Assembly (NCBI GenBank): GCA_039621445.1
Contig: CP154954.1
Coordinates: 25,370,954 to 25,434,953, forward strand
Length of the DNA stretch: 64,000 nt
Direction of reading: 5' to 3'
Source of the DNA: Euglena gracilis
Taxonomy: Eukaryota
Within the stretch, counting starts at the first letter, position 1, and each line of letters starts with the position of its first letter. The notes under the pieces were generated by a model. That model made no database searches. It was not told where the DNA came from and was given only the letters and a program-made list of their open reading frames with translations. Positions 13,730 through 59,732 of the stretch are shown piece after piece. The translations under genes and the position numbers were made by a program.

Positions 13730-13730
13730 T

Positions 13731-13761
<31 letters not shown>

Positions 13762-13890
13762 TACCTACCTACCTACCTACCTACCTACCTACCTACCTAC
13801 CTACCTACCTACCTACCTACCTACCTACCTACCTACCTACCTACCTACCTACATACATACATACATACATGCACGCATGCATGAATGCAT

Positions 13891-13929
<39 letters not shown>

Positions 13930-14800
13930 TCCCCGCAGGCAGGCATACATACATACATACATACATACATACATACATACATACATACATACATACATAC
14001 ATGCATGCATGCATGCATGCATGCATGCATGCATGCATGCATGCCAGGCTTTTGCTTAAGGGATTGCAGTACCCCCCCGGGGGGGGGGCTGGACTGCAGC
14101 TAGTCCAAATTTGGCTAGTGGGTTTTCTAGCAGACCCCCCCCCCCCCCCGGGGGGGGGGTCTGCTAGCAGGGCTAGCTAGTGGAAATTTTTTTTCCAGTG
14201 ACCGGCGCGAAGCGCCGAAAATTTTTTTTTGGACCCCCAAAAATGGCCAAAAATGCCCGTTTTTGGCCATTTTTGGGAATTTTTGGAACAAAATCAGCCC
14301 AAAACCTGTTAAAAACCTCATTTTTCCTCCGGCGCGCAGCGCCGGGGGAAATTTTTTTTCCAGTCTGGGGGGCCCCCGGACCCCCCCCCCCCCCGGGGGG
14401 GGAGGGGGGGGGTCTAGCTAGTCCACTTTTTCCAGTGTCTAGCCGATTGGCTAGCCAGTACCCCCCCCCCGGGGGTCCTTAAGCAAAAGCCTGATGCATG
14501 CATACATACATACATACATACATACATACATACATACATACATACATACATACATACATACATACATACATACATACATACATACATACATACATACATA
14601 CATACATACATACATACATACATACATACATACATACATACATACATACATACATACATACATACATACATACATACATACATACATACATACATACATA
14701 CATACATACATACATACATACATACATACACACATACACACATACATACACACATACACACTCATACATACATACATACGTACGTATTTACATTCATACA
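13730..14800. repeat. Compound microsatellite (TACA)n/(TACC)n/(GCAC)n/(ATGC)n interrupted by a MITE
   Basis: Directly visible tetranucleotide runs. Confidence 0.97.
14045..14493 (+). mobile_element. MITE family A (hAT-like, 8-bp TSD)
   Basis: Perfect 17-bp TIR CAGGCTTTTGCTTAAGG / CCTTAAGCAAAAGCCTG; TSD ATGCATGC (within a microsatellite, so weak on its own). Confidence 0.92.
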
Positions 14801-14802
14801 TA

Positions 14803-14979
14803 CCTCCCCCCCTTGTTGTTGACACGGCGTGTCGTTGACACACCTCCCGTGTCAACGACACTTTTTGAGAACATTACATATTGAATCACAGTGACATTGG
14901 CAGGGCGTGTCGTTGACACACCCCCAGTGTCAACGGAACTCTTTTGGAACATTGGCGTGTCAACGACAAGGGGGGGAGG
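14803..14979. mobile_element. TA-MITE family C
   Basis: TA|CCTCCCCCCCTTGTTGTTGACACG ... CGTGTCAACGACAAGGGGGGGAGG|TA; related sequence near 27970-28120. Confidence 0.88.
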
Positions 14980-23262: not shown

Positions 23263-23364
23263 TGGTGGTGGTAGTTATGGTGGTGGTGGTGGTGGTGGTG
23301 GTGGTGGTGGTGGTGGTGGTGGTGGTGGTGGTGGTGGTGGTGGTGGTGGTGGTGGTGGTGGTGG

Positions 23365-23395
<31 letters not shown>

Positions 23396-23415
23396 TCTGG
23401 TGTTGGTGGTGGTGG
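23263..23415. repeat. (GGT)n microsatellite
   Basis: Directly visible. Confidence 0.98.
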
Positions 23416-32417: not shown

Positions 32418-32959
32418 ATAGATAATGACCCAAAATAGTATTTAAAGTATTTCCCCCAGGCATGTGCTCTACATTTGCACATGTCTTCTGTTTGCTCAAT
32501 CTTCTTTGGTCTCATCCTCGCTGCTGTAGCAAATTTTCTTTTAGGGTTTGTGTTTTTTTAGAGTAGCACCACCTGATTTCATTTCCAATTTAGTGCCGGG
32601 CGGCGATGAAATAGTATTGGAAAAAAAATTCGCCTTTTCCGTTTTGTTGCTATGTCAGAAATTCAACATTTTCTGTCTAGAGCATTGTGCCTGGCCTGTG
32701 ACTTTGATTTTGAATGTGACACCATTCCAAGACGGTTGGTTGTAATGCCAGGGTTACAAGACGAAAGCCCAAATGCCTGAAGTTTATAACGTTGTCGAGT
32801 AGTTGCCCAGCTGCATTAATACCCTGTATTCCACCAGATGTATCGCTTTCAGATACATCTGTACACCCCCCAGCAGCTACAAAAGCGCATCCCGGCTTTT
32901 ACACACACACCCTGTTTTTTTGGCCAATATGGCCGTTCTGTACACTTTTTCCGACTTAC

Positions 32960-33390
32960 CGTTTTGGGCCAAAAAAAAAGTTGAAAAAAAAGTCGAAAAA
33001 GTCGATTTTTTTTTTTGCCCAGAAGCATGTTTTTAGGACTCCCGGACCCCAAAAAGTGTTTCCGAGCCGAAAACGAGCGTTTTTTTTTTTTGACCCCCCA
33101 GCCCCCCGTTTTGGGCCCAAAACCAATGGATTTAGGGTGACTATCGGGTCAGAAAAGTCGAAAAAATCAAAAAAATTGCCCGAAACGATGTTTTTTGGCC
33201 TCCTGGGCCCGGAAAAACTGTTTTTGAGCCGAAAATGAGCGTTTTTCGACCCGCCAGCGCCCCCCCCCCCCCGTTTTGGTCTGCCAACCCATTGACTTTG
33301 GGTCATTTCTGGGTCAAAAAAGTCGAAAAAAATGGAAAAATGCTCCGGAAATTCCAAAAAAAAAAGTGTTATCTGGCAATCTTTCTGGAT
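32960..33390. repeat. Dispersed repeat family with A/T-tracts (relatives at ~47760-47990 and ~58960-59400)
   Basis: Shared GCCGAAAATGAGCGTTTTT..ACCCCC..CCCCCGTTTTGG blocks. Confidence 0.75.
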
Positions 33391-34609
33391 TTTTTTGAAA
33401 GAATTCTTTTGAGGGTTAGTTTCGCGGCCAATTAGGACAGTGTTTTTTGCCACTAGTGGCATAAATTTACGCTATGTTGTGCAGGTGTCTTTTTCAGGCA
33501 TTTTAATTTGTAATTGTTAAGTTTTACAGGGAGTTTGCTTTCCTAATGCTCCTGTTAAATTGTTCTCTGTAGTGGAGCCCTCAGATTTGTCCATTGTTTC
33601 TCACATGATTTTGATGTTTGCTTGTTAGAAGGTGTGCCTTCTGTGAAGTAGTTCTGGATGTTGTTCTGATTTATGTCGCTTGTATGCTGAAATTGTGGTG
33701 TTTTGGCATACATTCTGTTGTTTTTGATTGTATTGTTGTCCAGGTGTAATTTCTTGTGGTTTTTTTGTTCCTTATGCAACATTGCCAATGCCCTCTTGTT
33801 TTCAAGGAACGTGTACATTGTTTGTGGTTCGCTCGCATGTTGTTTGTGAATGTCATTATATTTGATGGTGTTTCTCACAGTTGATGAATTTCTCTTTGTT
33901 TTTGTGGGGAAAATGTTCCTTTTTGATGTGTTGTTTCGCATTTCACCTGCTTCGGATCTTTTATGTGTTTCTGAAAGGGTGTTGTTCCACTGGTGGCATA
34001 ATTGAGCACTTTTTGAAGCAAAATTACTTTTTATGCCACTGGTGGCATAAAAAAGTAAAAAGGATGTTCAAATGTGCCTTTTTTTGAGACTCCTCTTCTG
34101 TGTCCTTGGTAGATGCTATTTTACAGTTACACACCTGAAAATGCTTATTTTTTTGGCCAACAGCTGATTGTTTTTGCCACCAGTGTCAAAAGACGCTCTG
34201 AATGTCTGGTGACGTGTCTAATTCTACTTTTCTGCCATTTGTGTCATAAAAATGGAATGCGAGCTGAAATGAAGTGTATATTTGTATATGTTTGCATATG
34301 TTTGAATGAAGCCAGTGACGTGCGGTTTCCTTGCCAGAATGCATTCATCTTCATTTTCTACCTTGCAGGTGTGATTCAAGGCCAGAAGTCCTTTGAAGCC
34401 CCTTCCTCTTTTTCTTCAGCGTATCCCAAGTTTCAAGCTCAAGTCTTCCATCCTGATCATCATCCCCACCTCCAGCTGAACGGTGTTTTTCAACACCTGG
34501 CTCCCACACTCTCTGGTCTGAGTATGTTTTTGCAGTGCATATGGTTGGCCCCTGCTGTTGCCTCTTTTTGGCTGTGTTGATAGTCTGTTTTTCTATGGTG
34601 GTGATGGGG

Positions 34610-34735
34610 TGGTGTTGGGGGTGGGTGGGGGGGGGGGGCGGGGTTTGTGGGTTGGGGGGGGATGGGGGGTGCGGGGGGGGGGGCGGGCGCGTGGGGGGGG
34701 GGTTGTTGGGGGGTGGGGGGCGGGGGGGGGGGGTG

Positions 34736-34766
<31 letters not shown>

Positions 34767-34845
34767 TGGGGTGGGGCGGGGTGGGGGGGGGGGGGGGGGG
34801 GGGGGGGGGGGAGGGGGGGGGGGGGGGGGGTGGGGGGTTTTTTTT

Positions 34846-34907
<62 letters not shown>

Positions 34908-34913
34908 TTTTTT
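34610..34913. repeat. Poly-G followed by poly-T low-complexity tract
   Basis: Directly visible; may be a consensus artefact. Confidence 0.9.
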
Positions 34914-34933
34914 CATCGTTGACAGAAACCATA

Positions 34934-37075
34934 ATGGCGAAATCCCTTGCAGCATCTGATGTTCGTGGTGTGATGAACGATGGCCTTGAAATGGTGAACA
35001 GGAATTGCACAGAGGCAGCAAGTTGTGGGGAGACGTTGGGTAGGATCATTGCGGAAGGCACCTGGCAGAGTGTTGACGACATGATTCGAACAGCTCTGGA
35101 ACAGCATTCGCCGGCTTTTCAGTACCTCACCCTTGTTAATAACCTTCGTGTGAAATCCCGCACAGGTGTCTGCATTGACTTGCAACACGCCCTTGCAATT
35201 GCCGAGGATGCTTTCACGTGTGCTGTGGGCGGGCAGCACCAAGCCCGTCATTATGCGGTGCATAATTTCTTTCGTGGTGCATTTTACCTGTATTTGAGCC
35301 TACGGCACCTCGTAATACCACGGGCCCAATTCATTGAGAATAGCGTCTCCCGTCTACCCTCAGCCGGGCTGATCAACGTGTATTGGCTCCCACCGGGTTG
35401 GTGCCCTACGCCGCATACACTGTTGCACAGCAGGCAACTAATTCCCTCCTAGACGTTTGGGCTGAGATCAAAGGTAAAACCGTCGGAGTTTGGGTGGATA
35501 ATTTCTATAAGCGACACTTTGGGGTGAATCCTGGGAACACAGACACATCTCTGAATGGTTGCCGTCCTCCTTAACACTCCCACGTTGGGAACGTGGCAAG
35601 GTTATCTTTCTGTGATGACCTGCTCCGGAGGGTCAACTTTGCCAGTTCTTCTTTCGCCGTCTCTGACAAGGAGCTTATGTCGTTTGTACAGGGTGCTTTC
35701 ATGGGTTTCACGGCAGAAGCAATTCGCGTTCCTCTAGATGTTCCGAGGGGCAAGATCCGTGGCCCCAAATGGTGTGATTTGTCGCTAGAACCCCATGGAA
35801 CAGCTAGCCACGTGGATCTGCTCAAAACCCTCAAGGTGGTCTTCCAGGTTCAGCAGCACAATGAACGTGTAATAACGTTGCTGTCGGATGAGAACACACA
35901 CTCCCGTGTGATACGATGGATGTACAGCCGAACGTACCGTCATCTAGCCATTCACGAGCACATACAAAGCTGTGTTTTGTTGTACGGGGTGTGGCATGCT
36001 TACAAGAATGTTTGCCTCCATCTGCACCACGTGTTCTTTCACATTTGGATTTACCTGGACAAGGGCTTGGCGGTACCCACAGACGCTGTTCCATTGCCTC
36101 ATGTGAACGGTGTTCAAAAACTCGGCCACATCGAACGTCTTGTTGCGACAATCTTGCTCCTTATGAGCGAACTACTGCCTATGATCCAAGGACCAAGAGA
36201 TTGACCGCATACGTGTTTTGTTTTATCGCGTGACACGGTCATTCACTGTCGGCCAAACAGGTTCTGTCTTTAGACCAGTCTGTTGCATGAAAGGAGTTGT
36301 TGTATGCCTCGAGTTTGGCAGAGAATAAAGGCAAACGAGTTCGGTCGCGCCTGCACCAACTGTTGCAATTTCGGCTACTGATTTCTGTCCAGCATTGTTT
36401 GCTATTGGATACAAGGTTTGTACATGCACATGGGACGGGCGTAAGCTGGGGTCGGGTGTTTGTGCTCGCCAAGCTCTTCAGTGGTCACTTTCTATGCTGA
36501 TCCGGTTACATCCGACAGATTATTTAAGGGTCCGTTACGTGAAGACAATCACACAAGCACTCTTATTCTGAAGGTAGTGGCACGTTGTGGCTCCAGGAGT
36601 GGTCCACTGTGAAGAGCTATGTGAGGCACATCTCAGCAAAGTTACACGAACGATGAGACAATTTGGTGCACATTCGGGCCAACAAGACTACTCGAATATG
36701 TTCTTGCTCACACCACCTAGTAGGAAGATGAGGGAGCATTGTGCCAGCGTTCCGGAGCGTGTCCGTTGTGTCGTTCGTGAACGTGTCCTGGATTTCGTGA
36801 AATCATCATTTATCCTGCCTACTGTGCGGTGGACATCAAATGGCTCGATTTCCATCCCGGACATCATGTCGTACACCACAGAACAGCCCCTTGTTCCTTT
36901 GCTGAGGCCCGTAGCGGAGGAAAGCATCATGGCGTCCCTACGCAGTAATTTGCGAACCCTGGTGCAAGAGCATAAGGCAACATCTGCGTTTGTAAGCATG
37001 TTGGAATCAATTTTCCAAAGAAGGTCATTGGAACATACACGAGGAGGAGGAAGTGTTGCAGCGGTTGGAATTTGA
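34934..37075 (+). pseudogene. Frameshifted putative DDE-type transposase (DUF6589/KDZ-like motif order)
   Basis: Consecutive same-strand ORF pieces with VWVDNF, LLSDENT, YGVWHAYK, RYVKTI and HCEELCEAHLS; several frameshifts and stops. Family assignment is by motif recall only. Confidence 0.6.
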
Positions 37076-39083
37076 GCTGCAGAATACAGGTCCAAGGGTT
37101 TCACGTAAGCGACATCGAGCAGTTTCTCAGCCACAGTGCTCGTCGGATGTGGTACAGCTGGCACGTATTGTGCCCGGACCTTCCAGTTCATGCAGAACGA
37201 CGCAATCCTAGCCTGGTGTTGTCATCATATCGGTGTCCAACCAACGGTGATCAAAGACTGCATGATCTTTGTGAGAGGGTTCTTCTTCACAATGGGATTA
37301 GGGCAAGTTGTACAGTCAGGCTCATGCTATGTGGATCACCTTGTTTTCATCCAGTTCGTCAATTTATGACACTAGTGGCATAAGTTGAACTTAGGACGCC
37401 ATGTCCCATGCATTTCGACCCACAGGCAGAGAAAGCAAAAAACCTTCAGCGAAAATTACAATTGGTCCACAGCTCAGCCCGCTTCTTCCAGTTCACAGCG
37501 CACCATATGATGGCCTGAATACTAACCCGTGACGTGCAAACGGTTCGCCATTTCCGCACCTTTTTTGTTTCCATGTCGCTGCTTGCGGTGCCCAGTTCGG
37601 GCTGGATTGGAGGATCAATGCCACCAAGGGGGGGTGGTGTCATCCAGCCTGCCCAAACTTTCAGCCATTTCAGCACCCCTGGCCCATGGGTCCTCGTAGG
37701 GGCTGTTCAGAAAGGGTCAGTCCAGCCCGTTCAGAGGTAGATATTCCATACCTGCCCCTGGGAAACGGCCTGCATCGCTGACCTGCCTCATAGGAGCCTG
37801 CTCCAACGCTTGCACCCGCTGACCTGTCTTCCATTAATCTTTAAGGATTTTCATGCTTTTTTTTTTGAAAAACTATTTTCCCCCAGTCGAAAAAAAATTG
37901 CTTCCGTTTTTTCCCCTCATTTTGATCCCGATTTTCTGTGACAAAAATTGCCAATTTTGCCATTTTTGCATTTTTTTGGTCAACAAATGACCAAAAAAAC
38001 CTTTTTTTTATGCAAATGAAAATCTTTTCCTGGTGGAGGTGGAATTTCTTCTTCCTTTCTAGTAGAAAGTGCACATCCCGGGGAGCTCCTGAAGGATTTT
38101 ACATATGCAATTTTCTTTTTTTTGTATTATTTTGTGTTTTTTTGTGCCTTCTTTTTTGCGCCTGTGCGTTGGAAGAGTTGTTTTTTTTTTTTGGCGTCGT
38201 GTTCTCCAAGGATCCATATGTTGCGTTCCCTCTCCCTGGTGGATGAGGCTGGTGGCCAGATTTTGGCCAGGTTTTCTGATAAACACATGATCGCAAATCA
38301 GCACAAAATTTGGACTTCCCAAAAACACAGGTAATCACAAATGACCACCAACAGCTGATTTTTTGCAACGTGAAGTTTGGTGTGTTGAAATTATTCTGCC
38401 ACCTGAGGATTAAATTTTCCCACAATTTCTCTGAGGACGAATTTTGGGAACAAACATTGAACACAGGGCTGTCTTTCAGAAATTTCCATCCCATCACATT
38501 CAATGATCGTCAGGGTAAAGTACCAACTACCTCCCCCCCCCCCGCCCGCTTGTCCCCCCTCCTCCTTACATGCAAACTTGGCCCCCCCTAAAATTGACCT
38601 TTAGCCTTTAGCGCGTGGCTGCTGAAATTCTTAATTTTTCAAACTTGGCCCCCCAAAGGATGGCCCCCTGGCCTTACCTTCAATCATGGCACGGGGAGGG
38701 GGAGGTAATTGCCTTTTGCCCTTTGTGTTTGGAAAAAGACGAATTCTGTTGTCTTTGGACTTCCGCCCAATGCATCAAAACAAGCACGTTCCCTGCCCCC
38801 CCCTCAGGCAGGGCTGGACGGGAATCCCCACAATCTCACTTGGGTGGGGGGTCATCCTGGTGGTAGGGGGTCCACCACCTGGGCCTTCCCTTTGTTTCCG
38901 GTGGTACCTTTACGTCCAACTTTTCTTCCGGCGCCTCGGTGCCAATGGAGTTTTCTTTGAACGGGTGCCACGGTGGGCGGGGTCGACCCCCCCCCTCCCA
39001 GGCCTTCCCGTACAGCCCTGCCCCCCCCCAGGGCAACCGCCTGCAGGTGCTTCTTCCCCTGACCCTCCCTTCAGAGGCAGCCG

Positions 39084-44381
<5,298 letters not shown>

Positions 44382-47224: not shown

Positions 47225-50200
47225 TTCCCCCTCCGGGGGAATTGGTCCAGTTCGGCCTGATTCCAACCACCATGATGGGCCTCTCATCAGTTGTGGTGTA
47301 CAGTGGTTGGGCAGATCCTTGGTAGGGAAAGGGTGCCATACTGCAGCAGGTGTTTGGGGCCTCTGTCAGACCAAATGTGTCCCTGGGGAGCTTATATGGC
47401 CCCCAGTCGCCGTTCTGGCCGCCGACCTATGTTCGAACTCAGTTTTGTGGTCCAAGACAGCATTTGGGGGGGGGGGGGGCAAAAAAAAAGGTTGTTCCGG
47501 CGCGCTTTTGCGGCCCAAAACGCCATTTTGAGGTGGTTTTTTGGGGTTATTTGATGGTTAAAAAAAATCGATTTTTTTCAAAATATCTCGACAATGAAGC
47601 AAAATCAAAGAAATGTCCGAAGAGCAAAAATAAAGCCCTTGGAATGCTCTGTCCAACCATGGTTTTCTTTTCCCCCAACTCTTTGTGTAGCCCGAGTAAC
47701 GAACAATTTTCGGCCAATTTTGGCCATATTGTGCAGTTTTGGCCTGTTTTGACTTGGCCTTTTTTAGGTCAAAAAATTCGAAAAAAAATACCCAAAACCA
47801 TGTTTATTGGCCTCCCGGACCCAGAAAAGCCGTTTCAAGCCGAAAATGAGTGTTTTTCGACCCCCCCCCCCAGCCCCCCATTTTCGGCCTGAAACCCATG
47901 CATTTTGGCTCACTTCCGGGTCAGAAAATTTCCGGGCCAGTTTCGAGATTTTTTTTCTTTTCAAAAATCGATTTTTTTTATACCAAAAGTCTCACCCTGG
48001 CAGAGTCGAAACTGGGACGGGGTGGTGAATCCCACAGTTTGGACCCCTTATCGGCTGAATAACTCAGGCCGGCCAGGGAGTCAGGGTCAAACGGAGTTGT
48101 TTCGGAAAGCCAAGATCCAGTCACACGTGACTGGAACAAAAAAATCCAGAATGGGGCCGGGGTCATGGTGATAATCCATGGTTTGCATCACCCACCCCCC
48201 TTTCCCTTGGTGGTGAGCCCCACGCTTGCTCTGAAGAGATAAGAGCTCAGCGACCCCCCCCCCCATTTACACCCCCCCTGCACCTGACCAAACCAGCCAG
48301 ACCTTATAAATCCCAGGGTGTTTATAAGTGGAGAGTGGGTAGTTTTTCGATAATTTCTTTCCAATACTGGAAATCTTCCTCGAAACACCACCAGAAAGTT
48401 CAGTTCAAAGCTATTTTCCCAGAGTGCAACATCCTTCCCTCCCAAATGCAGGATTCACAATGCTCATTGGGGATAAATGTTCTTGTTTACACCGTTCGTT
48501 CTGTTTCTCAGACACGTTGGAGTTTTTCCTTCATTCATTTCAACTTGTTGGACGTCATGGCTGTGAGCCATCCGGATCGATTTTTTTCTGGTTCATCATT
48601 TTATGTTGGATTGAATCGCATCTGTATCGATGCTGTTGCCTGGACGTCGCCCAACCACTGCGTTTCTGGCCGCCCCCGCAGAAACCCCGGCCCACCTAAC
48701 CAGCGGTGTCGGAACAACTTTTTCCCGGGGGGGGGGGGGAGGAACCGACAAAATTTGGTGCACATCCTTTTTTTTCTTGGCGTGAAGCGCCGAGGAAATT
48801 TTTTCCTTGGCACAACCAAAACGTATTTTTTTTCTGTCCTCCCGGCCCCTTCGGGGCCGAGACGCTAACACCTTTTTGAAGTCCAATGCCCCAAAAAATT
48901 GAACCAGAAAAGCGAAATCATGGGTAGAACCCTTTTGGAAACCTCCCAACTCAACCCAAATGTCGACTTCGCATGTCGACTTGGGGGGGGGGGTGGCAAA
49001 GAAGCCATTTTCTCACTTTGCGCAAAATTGTTTTTTTTCATTGAAATTTACCCGCACAGTTTTCCCCAAACTCGGTTGGTCAAGAAAACGGAGGGAGGGG
49101 GACTCAGTTGGGGAATCGGTTTGTATTTAAAACTAGCGTTGGGTATCTTTCGAAAGATTGGGAAAATACATTTCATTTCAGAAACATTTCAGAAATATTT
49201 CGGAAATATTTCGAAAAATTAAAAAAAATTCCTTCATTTTTGCAACCATGAAGGATCCACCAGGATCCTTCATGGTGGACGACGTGCTTTTCATTATTCA
49301 AGTAGGTTTGCAGGAAGGGTGCATTTTGCAAATCTTTCACCAAGGGGAATATATACTTCTGAAATTTCATGAACCATTTCAAGTGAAATATTTCAACATT
49401 TTTTCGCCGCAATGCTACAAACGGCCAAGGCGAAAGTGGTTTGTGGGGTCCCAAAAAGCAATTAGCATCAAAGGTGGGAGGGAAAAAAGTCGGTTTGTGG
49501 CCAAAATCAAGCATCAAGAAGTGCCATGGGTTTTAGGCAAGTAAATGAGCATTTTCTCAGGGGCTTCATTTCGGCCGCCAAAGACGGCCGAGATATTTGG
49601 ATTTTGCAATTTCATTTTCCAGAAATTTGAATTTAACTGGTATGGTAGCTCCCGAAGGCAGCCAAGACGGTGACGCCCTTTGAAAATGGCATTTCAAAGA
49701 AAAACACCACACTCATCCCTCAAATTTTTTCTTTCCAAAATCCCGGGCGGCCGCCCCCCCCCCCCGACCCCCCCTTGTGACACCTATGCACTTAACGAGC
49801 AATGCCTCACCCCAGGCTATACCTCTCCTCGCAGCGACGCTTGCTGCCCCCCACACAACGTCCCGTCTGTGGTTGGGGGCAGGGGCCCTGCACCTGTATA
49901 TGGTGACACGCTCGTCCCTCGTATTCATTCTTTAACACCCCGCGCATGGTATATCCCTCACGTGCCCAACTTCCACAGTTGCCGATTGGTTTGAAGCACT
50001 CTCGTCGACCAATAGCACAGCTTTTCATGAATTGTGCAGAATTCAAATCCCGCAAAAATCACAACCTCATGTTCCCAATGCACAACATGGATCACAACAT
50101 TGTTTGAGAATGTCGACATTGTTCGGAATATCCAGCTGCAAATGTTTAGCATTCAGGTCAGTGAGTGTGCAACAGCAAGGATTCCTCTAGCGGACGTCTA

Positions 50201-58500: not shown

Positions 58501-59732
58501 CCGTCGATACGTGTTCCCTTCTGATGAAATGTTAAAGATTTATGCACGTTTGATACCTCCCCCCCCCGGGGAGGGGGAGGTATCCCCCCCACACTTCTTA
58601 ACATGCAAACTTGGCCCCCTAAAGTTGGCCTTTTCTGCAAACTTTCAATCCTGGCCTTTAGTAAAATTTCTTTCCAGAAAGCCGCCGGGACGACGTTTGT
58701 AAACACAAATACTGATTTTTTGGCAATTTTATGAGACTGACCAACGTCAAAAATGCCTTTTTTGACCAAATTTGCCAAAAATTGTCACGTTGGGGGGTTT
58801 CGGCGTCATTTTGGTCGGATTTTCACCAACGATTCCTTGACTTATAAACCAGGTTTTGAATAGTGCTTACTCTTAATGGGACTTGCGCGCAACGTACGGC
58901 CGAAATAAATTACCATTGCCAATTTCGCATAATTTATGATTTATAAAATACACCTGTAAACAGTTTTTTTTTTTGACCCTCCAGAGCCCCGTTTTTGGCC
59001 CGAAAGGTTTTTGGTCAAAAAAGCTGGAAAAAAATATGTAACTTGCATAAAAATTACTGTTAGTTACGGTTTCGGGCAATTTTTTCGATGTTTCTTGACT
59101 TTTTTTGACACAAAAATTACCCAAATCCACAAGTTTCGGGCCAAAACCGGGGTGCTGGCGTGAAAATGAGCGTTTTTTGAACCCCCAGCACCCATTTTTG
59201 GCCCGAAACCTATGGAGTTTGGGTCAAAATAACGGGTCAAAAAAGGTCGAAACAATTGAAATTTTTTTGGCCGAAAGGATGTTTTTTGGGCCGGAAAATG
59301 AGCGTTTTTCACCCGCTCAAAAGCAGTTTTTCCAGGTCCGGGAGGCCTAAAAACATCGTTTTGGGCATCGTTTTGGACATTTTGTCAGACCGACACTTCC
59401 AGAAATAATGTACGTTTTCTCGAGATACTTTCGAAAAATCGATATTTGTGATGCTTGTGGTGAGCTTCATCGGTGAAGTTCACCATTGGTTATGTGAGGG
59501 AGGGAAGGTGTCCAGGAACCCCCAATGAAGTTCCAAACAGTGAGCCTCACCACGGGGGGGGGGGAGGTCCAAAATGGCCAATACTGCCTTATATCCTAGG
59601 CTGATGGCGGCCAGGAGTCCAAGATTCGACGGACAAAACTCTTTCCAAGCCGAAAGAAACCTTTCGGTCGCCTTCGGTGGCCGGCTTTTTGCAAAAAAAA
59701 AAAATGCGGGTCGCTGCATTATGGGTGTGGGG

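What the first reader, a model, noticed from the sequence alone, without database searches (positions are those of the whole stretch)
33432..37397. Fully delimited DNA transposon with AGT..ACT ends, 6-7-bp TSD and a divergent transposase
Seen: (T)TAGGAC duplicated on both sides of matching TIRs that enclose about 700 codons of broken ORF. The motif order DN .. D(EN)T .. GxWH .. Y .. E-x3-E recalls DUF6589 or Kyakuja-Dileera-Zisupton-type RNase H-fold transposases (inference). The termini and TSD do not match hAT (8 bp), Tc1 (TA), MuDR (9 bp) or CACTA (2-3 bp), so this may be an undescribed family.
Basis: partly seen in the sequence, partly recalled or inferred. Interest (0 to 1): 0.75.

Follow-up and report, generated by a model that had tools for sequence, protein, structure and literature searches.

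The report
Decayed Euglena-type DNA transposon, unnamed transposase

Summary
TTAGGAC stands at 33432-38 and 37391-97. A 27-nt inverted repeat (89%) lies 6-7 nt inside each copy. About 713 codons of broken reading frame lie between.

Public reads show a high-copy, nearly uniform family with deletion derivatives and apparently one continuous frame. The window copy differs from it by 4-7%.

"Fully delimited" is not settled. The family's shared sequence includes both TTAGGAC copies and at least 8 nt to the left. Either copies insert at one site of a flanking satellite, or the ends lie further out.

Earlier notes of this scan describe 9-11 kb transposons in the same genome with an unnamed P/hAT-like transposase and private palindromes. 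I could not test whether it is the same family. Repbase and Dfam were not available.

The parts
33348..33431 (.). Left flank: a diverged unit of the ~162-bp satellite that fills 32900-33340, in register with it
   Evidence: Local alignment to the neighbouring units scores 34; 200 shuffles give mean 19.7, sd 3.2, max 30. The satellite's summed depth exceeds 1e6 in runs X1 and X4. 33424-33431 is identical in the family's main unitig.
33432..33438 (+). Left TTAGGAC copy: putative 7-bp (or 6-bp TAGGAC) target-site duplication
   Evidence: It is also part of the sequence shared by the family's unitigs.
33439..33471 (+). Left end: 6 outer bases (AGTGTT), then the left arm of the inverted repeat (33445-33471)
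   Evidence: pair I1: 27 nt, 89% complementary. No difference from the main unitig is listed in 33424-33473.
33444..34249 (.). Five copies of the ~21-nt palindromic site TTTATGCCACTAGTGGCATAA, at 33444, 33981, 34030, 34171 and 34229: likely transposase-binding sites
   Evidence: families D3 and D4; (7 strand-matches against 0.04 expected, none outside the element).
34591..34923 (+). Poly-G then poly-T tract, specific to this copy
   Evidence: G run 34617-34837, T run 34838-34913. In contig record 10 of run X15 these 333 nt are about 19 nt (table 8).
34934..37075 (+). Transposase gene, decayed: 713 codons when read through 6 frameshifts (near 35357, 35557, 35618, 36184-90, 36263-66, 36375) and 3 stops (36288, 36569, 36575); ends at TGA 37073-37075
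   Evidence: One alignment covers P0004 residues 73-673 (36.8% identity, E 1e-127) and another P0164 residues 10-673 (E 4e-123).
35497..35499 (+). Codon of the first catalytic Asp (WVDNFYK); corresponds to D156 of P0003, which lies on strand 1 of the RNase H-like core
   Evidence: D in 86 of 87 aligned homologues.
35887..35889 (+). Codon of the second catalytic Asp (LSDENTH); corresponds to D289 of P0003, just after strand 284-288
   Evidence: Invariant, 92 of 92.
35983..36006 (+). YGVWHAYK motif (G322, W324, H325 of P0003), at the start of the helix after the fifth strand
   Evidence: W and H in 91 of 91.
36611..36625 (+). EELCE: the acidic helix that most likely carries the catalytic Glu (E528, E529, E532 of P0003, helix 529-544)
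   Evidence: 49 of 54, 51 of 54, 51 of 53. The structural alignments to the P element, Hermes, Tn5 and Mos1 all run to model residues 562-570. Which Glu is catalytic is inferred.
37357..37390 (+). Right end: right arm of the inverted repeat (37357-37383, holding the sixth palindromic site at 37363-37383), then 7 outer bases (GTTGAAC)
37391..37397 (+). Right TTAGGAC copy: putative target-site duplication
   Evidence: A deletion-derivative contig matches the window up to 37396 (X1) or 37394 (X4) and then ends.

Best explanation
33439-37390 is a dead copy of a one-gene, roughly 3.6-4 kb cut-and-paste (class II) DNA transposon. The family is present in hundreds of copies or more in this Euglena-type genome.

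The single gene encoded a transposase of about 710 aa with an RNase H-like DDE core. The triad is D at WVDNF, D at DEN and E in the EExxE helix. A large all-helical insertion domain sits between the fifth strand and the Glu helix, the layout seen in P-element, hAT and Transib/RAG1 enzymes.

Inferred mechanism:
- The enzyme, probably as a dimer, binds the 20-bp palindromic sites (five near the left end, one at the right end).
- It pairs the ends and cuts about 10 nt outside the outermost site cores.
- It integrates with a 7-bp stagger, which gives the TTAGGAC duplication.

The protein belongs to a large eukaryotic family without a Pfam model. It is probably a distant relative of DUF6589.

The confidence given (0.78) is for the core claim: a decayed copy of a high-copy DDE cut-and-paste transposon with an unnamed transposase lineage. 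Sub-claims, with my odds:
- TTAGGAC is a true target duplication: about 0.55.
- The family inserts preferentially at one site of the flanking satellite unit: about 0.4.

What is shown: the repeats, the reading frame, the protein family, the predicted fold, the copy abundance and the deletion derivatives. What is inferred: DNA binding, cleavage positions, stagger and target choice.
For: Gene:
- The read-through of 713 codons aligns in one piece with full-length homologues (E 1e-127 and 4e-123; frames mapped).
- All conserved catalytic motifs are retained in the window copy.

Family:
- phmmer found 290 cluster representatives at E<=1e-3, 141 at E<=1e-10 and 10 at E<=1e-30. Many are about 700 aa.

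Fold:
- AlphaFold2 on 92 sequences gave pLDDT 91.9 and pTM 0.88.

Mobility (all):
- Unitigs of runs X1 and X4 cover the element at depth about 400-830 in runs of 1.4-1.6 billion letters.
- They differ from the window by 4-7%.
- Their indels (+C at 35356; +8 at 35557; +T at 35619; -4 at 36186; +TA at 36264; +7 at 36376) and the change A>G at 36571 restore one continuous frame. The restored frame reads homologous residues.
- Two internal-deletion derivatives exist: 35133>37040 at depth 230-288, and 34323>about 37327 at depth 44-50.

Ends:
- The TTAGGAC pair with its inverted repeat is the top TSD+TIR candidate.
- The two palindrome cores lie 10 and 11 nt from the two TTAGGAC copies.
- Both flanks look like one interrupted satellite unit. 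The left flank is significant, the right one is not.

Architecture in relatives:
- L001 has an intact 714-aa ORF. L001 and L002 carry their own palindromes in 4-5 copies: in L001 mostly flanking the ORF on both sides (one copy inside it), in L002 three downstream of the protein match and one inside it.
Against: - The outermost bases of the two ends do not mirror each other: AGTGTT against GTTCAAC. Only AGT is shared, and only with a 6-bp duplication.
- The family's main unitig is identical to the window through 33424-33473, which is 15 nt beyond the proposed left end. Contigs reach about 37396 on the right. So TTAGGAC is constant among copies, unlike an ordinary random-target TSD.
- A contig of run X15 runs on for 332 nt left of 33424 with sequence unlike the window.
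- There is no second copy and no empty paralogous site in the window.
- No clear TIR or TSD could be found in the relatives L001 and L002, where the best score of 16 is near background. Their contigs may be too short.
- Earlier notes of this scan report 5-bp duplications for possibly related Euglena elements (untested here).
- No RNA reads of run X21 lie on the coding part, with about 5 in 100 of the run read.
Confidence: 0.78

Rival explanations
1. The element is wider than the reader's borders. TTAGGAC and at least the 8-14 nt to its left belong to the mobile unit, for example as a flank captured and carried along. The 7-mer repeat is then an internal direct repeat, not a target duplication, and this copy has no visible TSD.
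For: - The main unitig of X1 and X4 matches the window without a listed difference from 33424 to 33473 and ends only about 6 nt further left.
- A 919-nt contig of X15 continues 332 nt beyond 33424.
- A derivative contig reaches 37394-37396 (all).
- The Dada literature describes flanking sequence that came to be transposed with the element (PMC8869645, passages read).
Against: - In the window the satellite register runs without a break across 33424, up to 33430. That is expected for a flank, not for element sequence.
- With borders at about 33424 and 37397 there is no inverted repeat at the tips and no duplication outside them.
- The two palindrome cores are symmetric (10 and 11 nt) about the TTAGGAC copies, not about the wider borders.
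Confidence: 0.25
2. The copies were multiplied mainly as passengers of the satellite (unequal crossing-over of a higher-order unit holding one old insertion), not by transposition. Shared flanks then simply reflect co-amplification.
For: - The element sits in a satellite of very high depth, above 1e6 summed.
- The family is nearly uniform, with long unitigs at high depth, and shares flank sequence.
Against: - The window copy shares only 15 nt of left flank with the dominant form, although the element itself is 93-96% identical. Co-amplified copies should share long flanks at similar identity.
- Two classes of internal-deletion derivatives with intact ends are typical of transposase-driven families.
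- The family's indel pattern preserves one long open frame, which suggests selection for a working enzyme.
- Only one copy lies in 64 kb here.
Confidence: 0.1
3. On classification: the transposase is not a new lineage. It is a very divergent member of an already named superfamily (DUF6589-type elements, Dada, P, hAT or KDZ) and may already be in Repbase or Dfam under a name.
For: - The atlas puts DUF6589 clusters nearest for two members: scores 0.90 and 0.95, with 173 and 200 of 256 features shared.
- The best structural matches are the P element and Hermes.
- A 6-7 bp duplication and insertion into a multicopy sequence are the hallmarks of Dada (PMC3706591, abstract and sections 5 and 12 read).
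Against: - No Pfam family matched at E<=10 in 0 of 40 long homologues (11 of the 40 had only weak unrelated hits), nor at E<=1 in 7 window pieces.
- A profile search of PDB sequences found nothing related.
- The family has no conserved Cys/His clusters: only H293, H325 and C466 stand out. Dada has CCCC and CCHC zinc fingers and a DxxH motif (PMC3706591, section 5).
- The motif here is GxWH.
Confidence: 0.35

Closest known systems
Drosophila P element transposase (PDB 6p5a, 6pe2) / P superfamily
   Different: No sequence or HMM similarity. No conserved zinc-finger (THAP-type) N-terminus (that P has THAP is recalled). A GTP-binding function of the insertion domain was not tested.
hAT transposase Hermes (PDB 4d1q, 6dwz, 8sjd)
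   Different: The duplication here is 6-7 bp, not 8. No hAT dimerisation-domain Pfam hit. The motif is GxWH instead of CxxH (the CxxH motif as described in PMC3706591, section 5).
Dada superfamily (Kojima and Jurka 2013, PMC3706591; PMC8869645)
   Same: 6-7 bp duplications. Insertion at one site of a multicopy sequence, with one flank more conserved than the other. DDE enzyme of the hAT/P/MuDR/Kolobok group. Flank sequence is sometimes carried along.
   Different: Dada enzymes have N-terminal CCCC and C-terminal CCHC zinc fingers and a DxxH motif, and are mostly longer with introns (section 5). This family has none of these. The putative target here is a satellite, not a small-RNA gene. Dada sequences could not be compared directly: the paper's FASTA supplement cannot be read here.
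Pfam DUF6589 (PF20231) proteins of fungi and invertebrates
   Same: Nearest named clusters in the ESM Atlas for P0003 and P0004, with similar lengths of 555-754 aa.
   Different: No HMM match at E<=10 in 40 homologues. The only paper holding the term names it as an enriched domain without a function (one passage read).
Earlier notes of this scan: 9-11 kb Euglena transposons with an unnamed DDE transposase, private palindromes and a ParB-like second gene (e1-7360171, e1-7359145, e1-7359641, e1-7359578, e1-7359108)
   Same: Same genome, same pattern of structural matches (P element and Hermes), same use of an element-specific palindrome.
   Different: Those elements are 2-3 times longer, carry a second gene, and are said to end CTTAG..CTAAG with 5-bp duplications. 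Word look-ups with this element's protein and DNA found no shared stretch, so whether it is the same protein family is untested.

Membership tests
Class II cut-and-paste (TIR) DNA transposon | Encodes a DDE transposase with an RNase H-like fold | tested here: met
Class II cut-and-paste (TIR) DNA transposon | Terminal inverted repeats | tested here: met
   27 nt, 89% complementary, at 33445-71 and 37357-83. They are subterminal by 6-7 nt and the tips share only AGT.
Class II cut-and-paste (TIR) DNA transposon | Target-site duplication that differs between copies | tested here: inconclusive
   A 7-bp direct repeat is present, but it is constant in the family's contigs. No other copy with its flanks could be read.
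Class II cut-and-paste (TIR) DNA transposon | Many copies, including internal-deletion derivatives | tested here: met
   Unitig depth 400-830 in two DNA runs. Derivatives 35133>37040 and 34323>about 37327.
DUF6589 (PF20231) | Match to the Pfam model at its gathering score | tested here: not met
   0 of 40 homologues at E<=10, 0 of 27 at E<=0.01, 0 of 7 window pieces at E<=1. The atlas resemblance is a lead only.
KDZ (Kyakuja-Dileera-Zisupton, PF18758) | Match to the KDZ transposase model; cysteine-rich CxC domain (this feature is recalled) | tested here: not met
   No Pfam hit. No conserved Cys cluster in 92 sequences.
P superfamily | P-element transposase Pfam domains and a THAP zinc finger (recalled); duplication of about 8 bp | tested here: not met
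hAT superfamily | 8-bp duplication; C-terminal hAT dimerisation domain; CxxH motif | tested here: not met
Dada superfamily | 6-7 bp duplication | tested here: met
   TTAGGAC or TAGGAC, if the repeat is a true duplication.
Dada superfamily | N-terminal CCCC and C-terminal CCHC zinc fingers and a DxxH motif (PMC3706591, section 5) | tested here: not met
   Only H293 (58 of 92), H325 (91 of 91) and C466 (51 of 68) are conserved C/H columns. The motif is GVWH.
Dada superfamily | Insertion at a fixed site of a multicopy sequence | tested here: inconclusive
   The left flank (15 nt) and TTAGGAC are constant in the family's contigs, and the flanks are satellite-like. No set of copies could be aligned. 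No tRNA or Rfam RNA lies at the site.
Dada superfamily | Sequence similarity to Dada transposases | not testable with these tools
   The Dada protein alignment is a FASTA supplement that cannot be read here. Repbase is not available.

The most novel reading that the evidence does not exclude
This is a member of a new superfamily-level lineage of eukaryotic DDE transposons: DUF6589-like, with a P/hAT-type fold, no zinc fingers, and private palindromic binding sites. It integrates sequence-specifically, with a 7-bp duplication, at one position of a hugely abundant satellite repeat. That would make it a second kind of target-specific DNA transposon beside Dada, using a satellite as a safe haven. 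It has reached hundreds of copies or more in Euglena, and its consensus gene may still be intact.
Probability: 0.22. Interest if true: 0.7.

Novelty: new variant of a known kind. Interest (0 to 1): 0.45.

Why it matters
Euglenid genomes are huge, repeat-filled and poorly annotated. A family of this size whose enzyme no domain library recognises will be missed or mislabelled by standard repeat and gene annotation.

The protein family is large: at least 290 clusters at 50% identity in environmental and genome data. It has no Pfam model, so a model and a name would improve annotation well beyond Euglena.

If the constant flank reflects true site choice, the element would be a rare sequence-specific cut-and-paste transposon. 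That bears on how transposons coexist with their hosts, and such enzymes are of interest as targeted-integration tools.

If the consensus reading frame is intact, as the indel pattern suggests, the family may still be active. It could then serve as a genetic tool in Euglena.

Tried and rejected
- Own genome: none is held, so termini could not be searched genome-wide.
- Other copies in the window: none by blastn.
- Paralogous empty site: none.
- tRNA at the rebuilt empty site or anywhere in the window: none.
- Rfam: nothing at gathering score in the window, and only chance-level rows in the flanks.
- Pfam on window pieces and homologues: no transposase family.
- PDB by sequence profile: three unrelated rows at E 0.019-2.
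- Foldseek alone: no match at E<=1e-3.
- Word-indexed protein search with the alignment: only 14 family members, no names beyond 'hypothetical protein', no Pfam.
- Cluster look-up of 10 homologues: no taxa or names, contigs of 1-7 kb.
- Related loci: 0 in viral contigs; 0 in prokaryote genomes (after one search failed for lack of a conserved stretch); 3 short loci in metagenomes, in which no TIR/TSD pair stood out.
- Searching PF20231 in the records of L001-L003 was not possible.
- Earlier-findings look-ups by sequence: 0 windows. One by words met no finding.
- Expression: no RNA holder was listed. Run X15, labelled 'RNA?', has the same element-to-satellite depth ratio as DNA run X1 (about 4e-4 in both), so I treat it as DNA.
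- A 5S-rRNA-like look of the flanks was considered. I dropped it because Rfam found no 5S match in 37380-38100 at E<=1.
- The idea that the two TTAGGAC copies are left tips of two adjacent CTTAGG-type elements was dropped. The sequences differ completely after the 7-mer, and no GTCCTAA partner lies nearby.
- Literature: I found no description of this family or of such a Euglena transposon. These four searches cover only the held library.

Full report
**What is in the sequence**

The window is eukaryotic. Earlier notes of this scan call the genome Euglena gracilis-type; I did not verify that.

TTAGGAC stands at 33432-33438 and 37391-37397. The 7-mer itself is not rare: 4 matches in the window against 4.46 expected. 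Its placement is. I scanned every 5-9 nt direct repeat between the two end regions and scored the inverted match of the 30 nt inside each pair. This pair came first, with 21 of 30 matched; unrelated pairs reached 15 or less.

The inverted repeat proper is 33445-33471 against 37357-37383, 27 nt at 89%. It begins 6 nt (left) and 7 nt (right) inside the TTAGGAC copies. The outermost bases (AGTGTT against the complement GTTCAAC) agree only as AGT/ACT, and only if the duplication is read as 6 bp.

Each arm is built round the palindrome GCCACTAGTGGC. About 21 nt of it recur at six sites, five within 810 nt of the left end and one at the right end, and nowhere else in 64 kb (family D4). A 16-nt version gave 7 strand-matches against 0.04 expected. 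The two outermost cores lie 10 and 11 nt from the two TTAGGAC copies, so the arrangement is symmetric.

**The gene**

Three frames hold pieces that map in order onto residues 6-673 of full-length homologues of 699 and 716 aa (tblastn).

Public contigs of the same family differ from the window by small indels: +C after 35356, +8 after 35557, +T after 35619, -4 at 36186, +TA after 36264 and +7 after 36376. These are exactly the changes that turn the window's frame changes into one continuous frame. The stretches read in the 'other' frames give residues homologous to the family. For example, VAVLLNTPTLGTWQGY matches the NATAFAV..LG.F..YP block.

I read the window through these six breaks in a script, with X at each break and at three remaining stops (36288, 36569, 36575). 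One of these, TGA at 36569, is TGG in the family (A>G at 36571). The result is 713 codons that align in one piece with P0004 (residues 73-673, 36.8% identity, E 1e-127) and with P0164 (10-673, E 4e-123).

The 333-nt poly-G/poly-T tract at 34591-34923 is about 19 nt in a family contig, so it is a peculiarity of this copy.

**The protein family**

phmmer with the 286-residue core (P0001) against 1.84 billion cluster representatives found 290 proteins at E<=1e-3, 141 at E<=1e-10 and 10 at E<=1e-30. Many are about 700 aa.

- Ten looked-up clusters carry no taxon and no name beyond 'hypothetical protein', and lie on contigs of 1-7 kb.
- No Pfam family matched 27 long homologues at E<=0.01.
- No transposase-related family matched 40 homologues at E<=10; 11 of the 40 had only weak unrelated rows.
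- No transposase family matched the 7 window pieces at E<=1.
- A profile of 92 sequences found nothing related among PDB sequences.

The alignment shows these conserved columns:

| Column (P0003 numbering) | Conservation |
|---|---|
| W154 | 85/85 |
| D156 | 86/87 |
| N157 | 86/87 |
| R235, P237, D239 | 89/89 each |
| D289 | 92/92 |
| G322 | 90/91 |
| W324, H325 | 91/91 each |
| E366 | 88/90 |
| E528 | 49/54 |
| E529 | 51/54 |
| E532 | 51/53 |

There are no Cys/His clusters. All of these motifs survive in the window copy.

**Fold**

AlphaFold2 on the 92-sequence alignment (target P0003) gave pLDDT 91.9 and pTM 0.88.

- D156 sits on strand 152-160.
- D289 sits just after strand 284-288.
- W324-H325 open the helix after strand 317-321.
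- A long helical region follows.
- The EExxE motif lies on helix 529-544.

Foldseek's own scores are weak: best is the P element 6p5a_A at E 3.3e-3, with none at 1e-3 or below. Even so, the list is headed by the P element, Hermes, Transib, RAG1 and Mos1.

**Named relatives**

The ESM Atlas puts DUF6589 (PF20231) clusters nearest for two members. For P0003, 28 of 30 hits were DUF6589, with score 0.90 and 173 of 256 features shared. For P0004, 29 of 30, with score 0.95 and 200 of 256.

The one paper holding the term only lists it as an enriched domain.

Dada (PMC3706591: abstract and sections 5 and 12 read; PMC8869645: passages read) shares the 6-7 bp duplication and fixed-site insertion into multicopy sequences. 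However, it is defined by two zinc fingers and a DxxH motif, which this family lacks. I could not compare sequences with Dada, KDZ, P or hAT directly. Repbase and Dfam are not on hand, and the Dada FASTA supplement cannot be read.

**Copies and mobility**

I laid two DNA runs, one run labelled 'RNA?' and one RNA run on 33250-37600.

- Unitigs of X1 and X4 cover the whole element at depth about 400-830, in runs of 1.4-1.6 billion letters.
- They differ from the window by 4-7%.
- They are long (up to 916 nt), so the bulk of the family is nearly uniform and the window copy is an older, decayed one. If these are shotgun runs at about 1x or less of a Gb-sized genome, that means hundreds to about a thousand copies.
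- Two internal-deletion derivatives are seen: 35133>37040 at depth 230-288, and 34323>about 37327 at depth 44-50. The second tool row reads 34323>37357 with 30 letters between; those letters are a diverged 37327-37356.
- No RNA read of X21 lies on the coding part, with 5 in 100 of the run read.
- X15 has the same element-to-satellite depth ratio as X1 (about 4e-4), so it is probably DNA.

The main unitig of X1 and X4 matches the window from 33671 down to 33424. All 17-18 of its differences lie at 33474 or beyond. So 33424-33473, including TTAGGAC and the 8 nt to its left (GCGGCCAA), is identical to the family's dominant form. The unitig ends about 6 nt further left.

A 919-nt contig of X15 stops matching at the same base and runs on 332 nt with other sequence. 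On the right, the deletion-derivative contig matches to 37396 (X1) or 37394 (X4). TTAGGAC is therefore constant among copies.

The flanks give a clue. The left flank 33348-33430 aligns in register with the adjacent ~162-bp satellite (score 34 against shuffles of mean 19.7, max 30). That register runs across 33424. The right flank aligns to the next part of the unit, but not significantly (28 against max 34). The satellite's summed depth exceeds 1e6 in X1 and X4.

The reading that fits most of this is an insertion into a satellite unit at a site that most copies share, with one side of the target more constrained, as reported for Dada. The main rival is that the 15 nt are carried as part of the element and that there is no true duplication. 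Co-amplification with the satellite is less likely, because this copy shares only 15 nt of flank with the dominant form while the element itself is 93-96% identical. None of these can be settled without aligned genomic copies. No genome is held, the window has no second copy or empty site, and the lay of reads can be run only once.

**Relatives elsewhere**

Three metagenome loci encode relatives.

- L001 has an intact 714-aa ORF and two private palindromes, each in five copies, mostly flanking the ORF on both sides; one copy lies inside it.
- L002 has its own palindrome in four copies (three downstream of the protein match, one inside it).

So an ORF flanked by element-specific palindromic sites is a family trait. 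No TIR/TSD pair stood out in these short contigs. No relative was found in viral contigs or in prokaryote genomes.

**Earlier notes of this scan**

These notes (unchecked) describe 9-11 kb transposons in the same genome. They have an unnamed DDE transposase folded like the P element and hAT, private palindromes, a ParB-like second gene, CTTAG..CTAAG ends and 5-bp duplications. The fold result and the palindromes agree with what I see. The size, gene content, ends and duplication length differ. Word look-ups with this element found no shared stretch, so whether the enzymes are one family is open.

**Verdict**

This is a real, decayed copy of a high-copy cut-and-paste DNA transposon. Its DDE transposase belongs to a large family that Pfam and PDB sequence searches do not recognise. 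The family is nearest to DUF6589 by language-model features and to the P element and hAT by predicted structure.

The borders and the nature of the repeat are not settled. The claim of an undescribed superfamily needs Repbase/Dfam and profile-profile tests. My four literature searches found no description, but they cover only the held library.

Noticed in passing
window 32900-33340 (also 47750-47930, 59070-59390): A ~162-bp satellite rich in A/T runs and C runs. Its summed contig depth exceeds 1e6 in two DNA runs. A few RNA-seq reads of run X21 lie on it (depth 5-7 in 33250-33395).
   Followed up: partly
window 34591-34923: A 333-nt poly-G then poly-T tract just upstream of the transposase start. 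It is about 19 nt in a family contig, so it is a copy-specific homopolymer expansion or an assembly oddity.
   Followed up: partly
window 33920-34271: The palindrome-bearing subterminal region has higher depth (up to 4,751) than the rest of the element. It also shows variant joints: one skips 33954-34028, and one is an inversion 33920/34171. This suggests more abundant short derivatives or rearrangement between the palindromes.
   Followed up: no
window 37398-37600: The right flank is itself repeated (depth about 170-220, plus a 21-nt deletion variant at 37455-37477 at depth 34-44). The element therefore lies inside other repeated DNA.
   Followed up: no
L001 241-957 and 3193-3323; L002 1599-2487: Relatives of the transposase in metagenome contigs carry their own, different palindromes (for example TCTGGTCGCGATCGCGCCCAGA, GGTGTTTTTCAACACC and AGTCCGCGAGCGATCGCGGACT) in several copies around the ORF.
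   Followed up: partly
window 40760-41218, 14497-14803, 13730-14044, 23263-23415: Long microsatellites: (GT)231, (CATA)77, (TACA)/(CATG) arrays and (TGG)51.
   Followed up: no
It is unrelated to this element, and I did not examine it.
   Followed up: no
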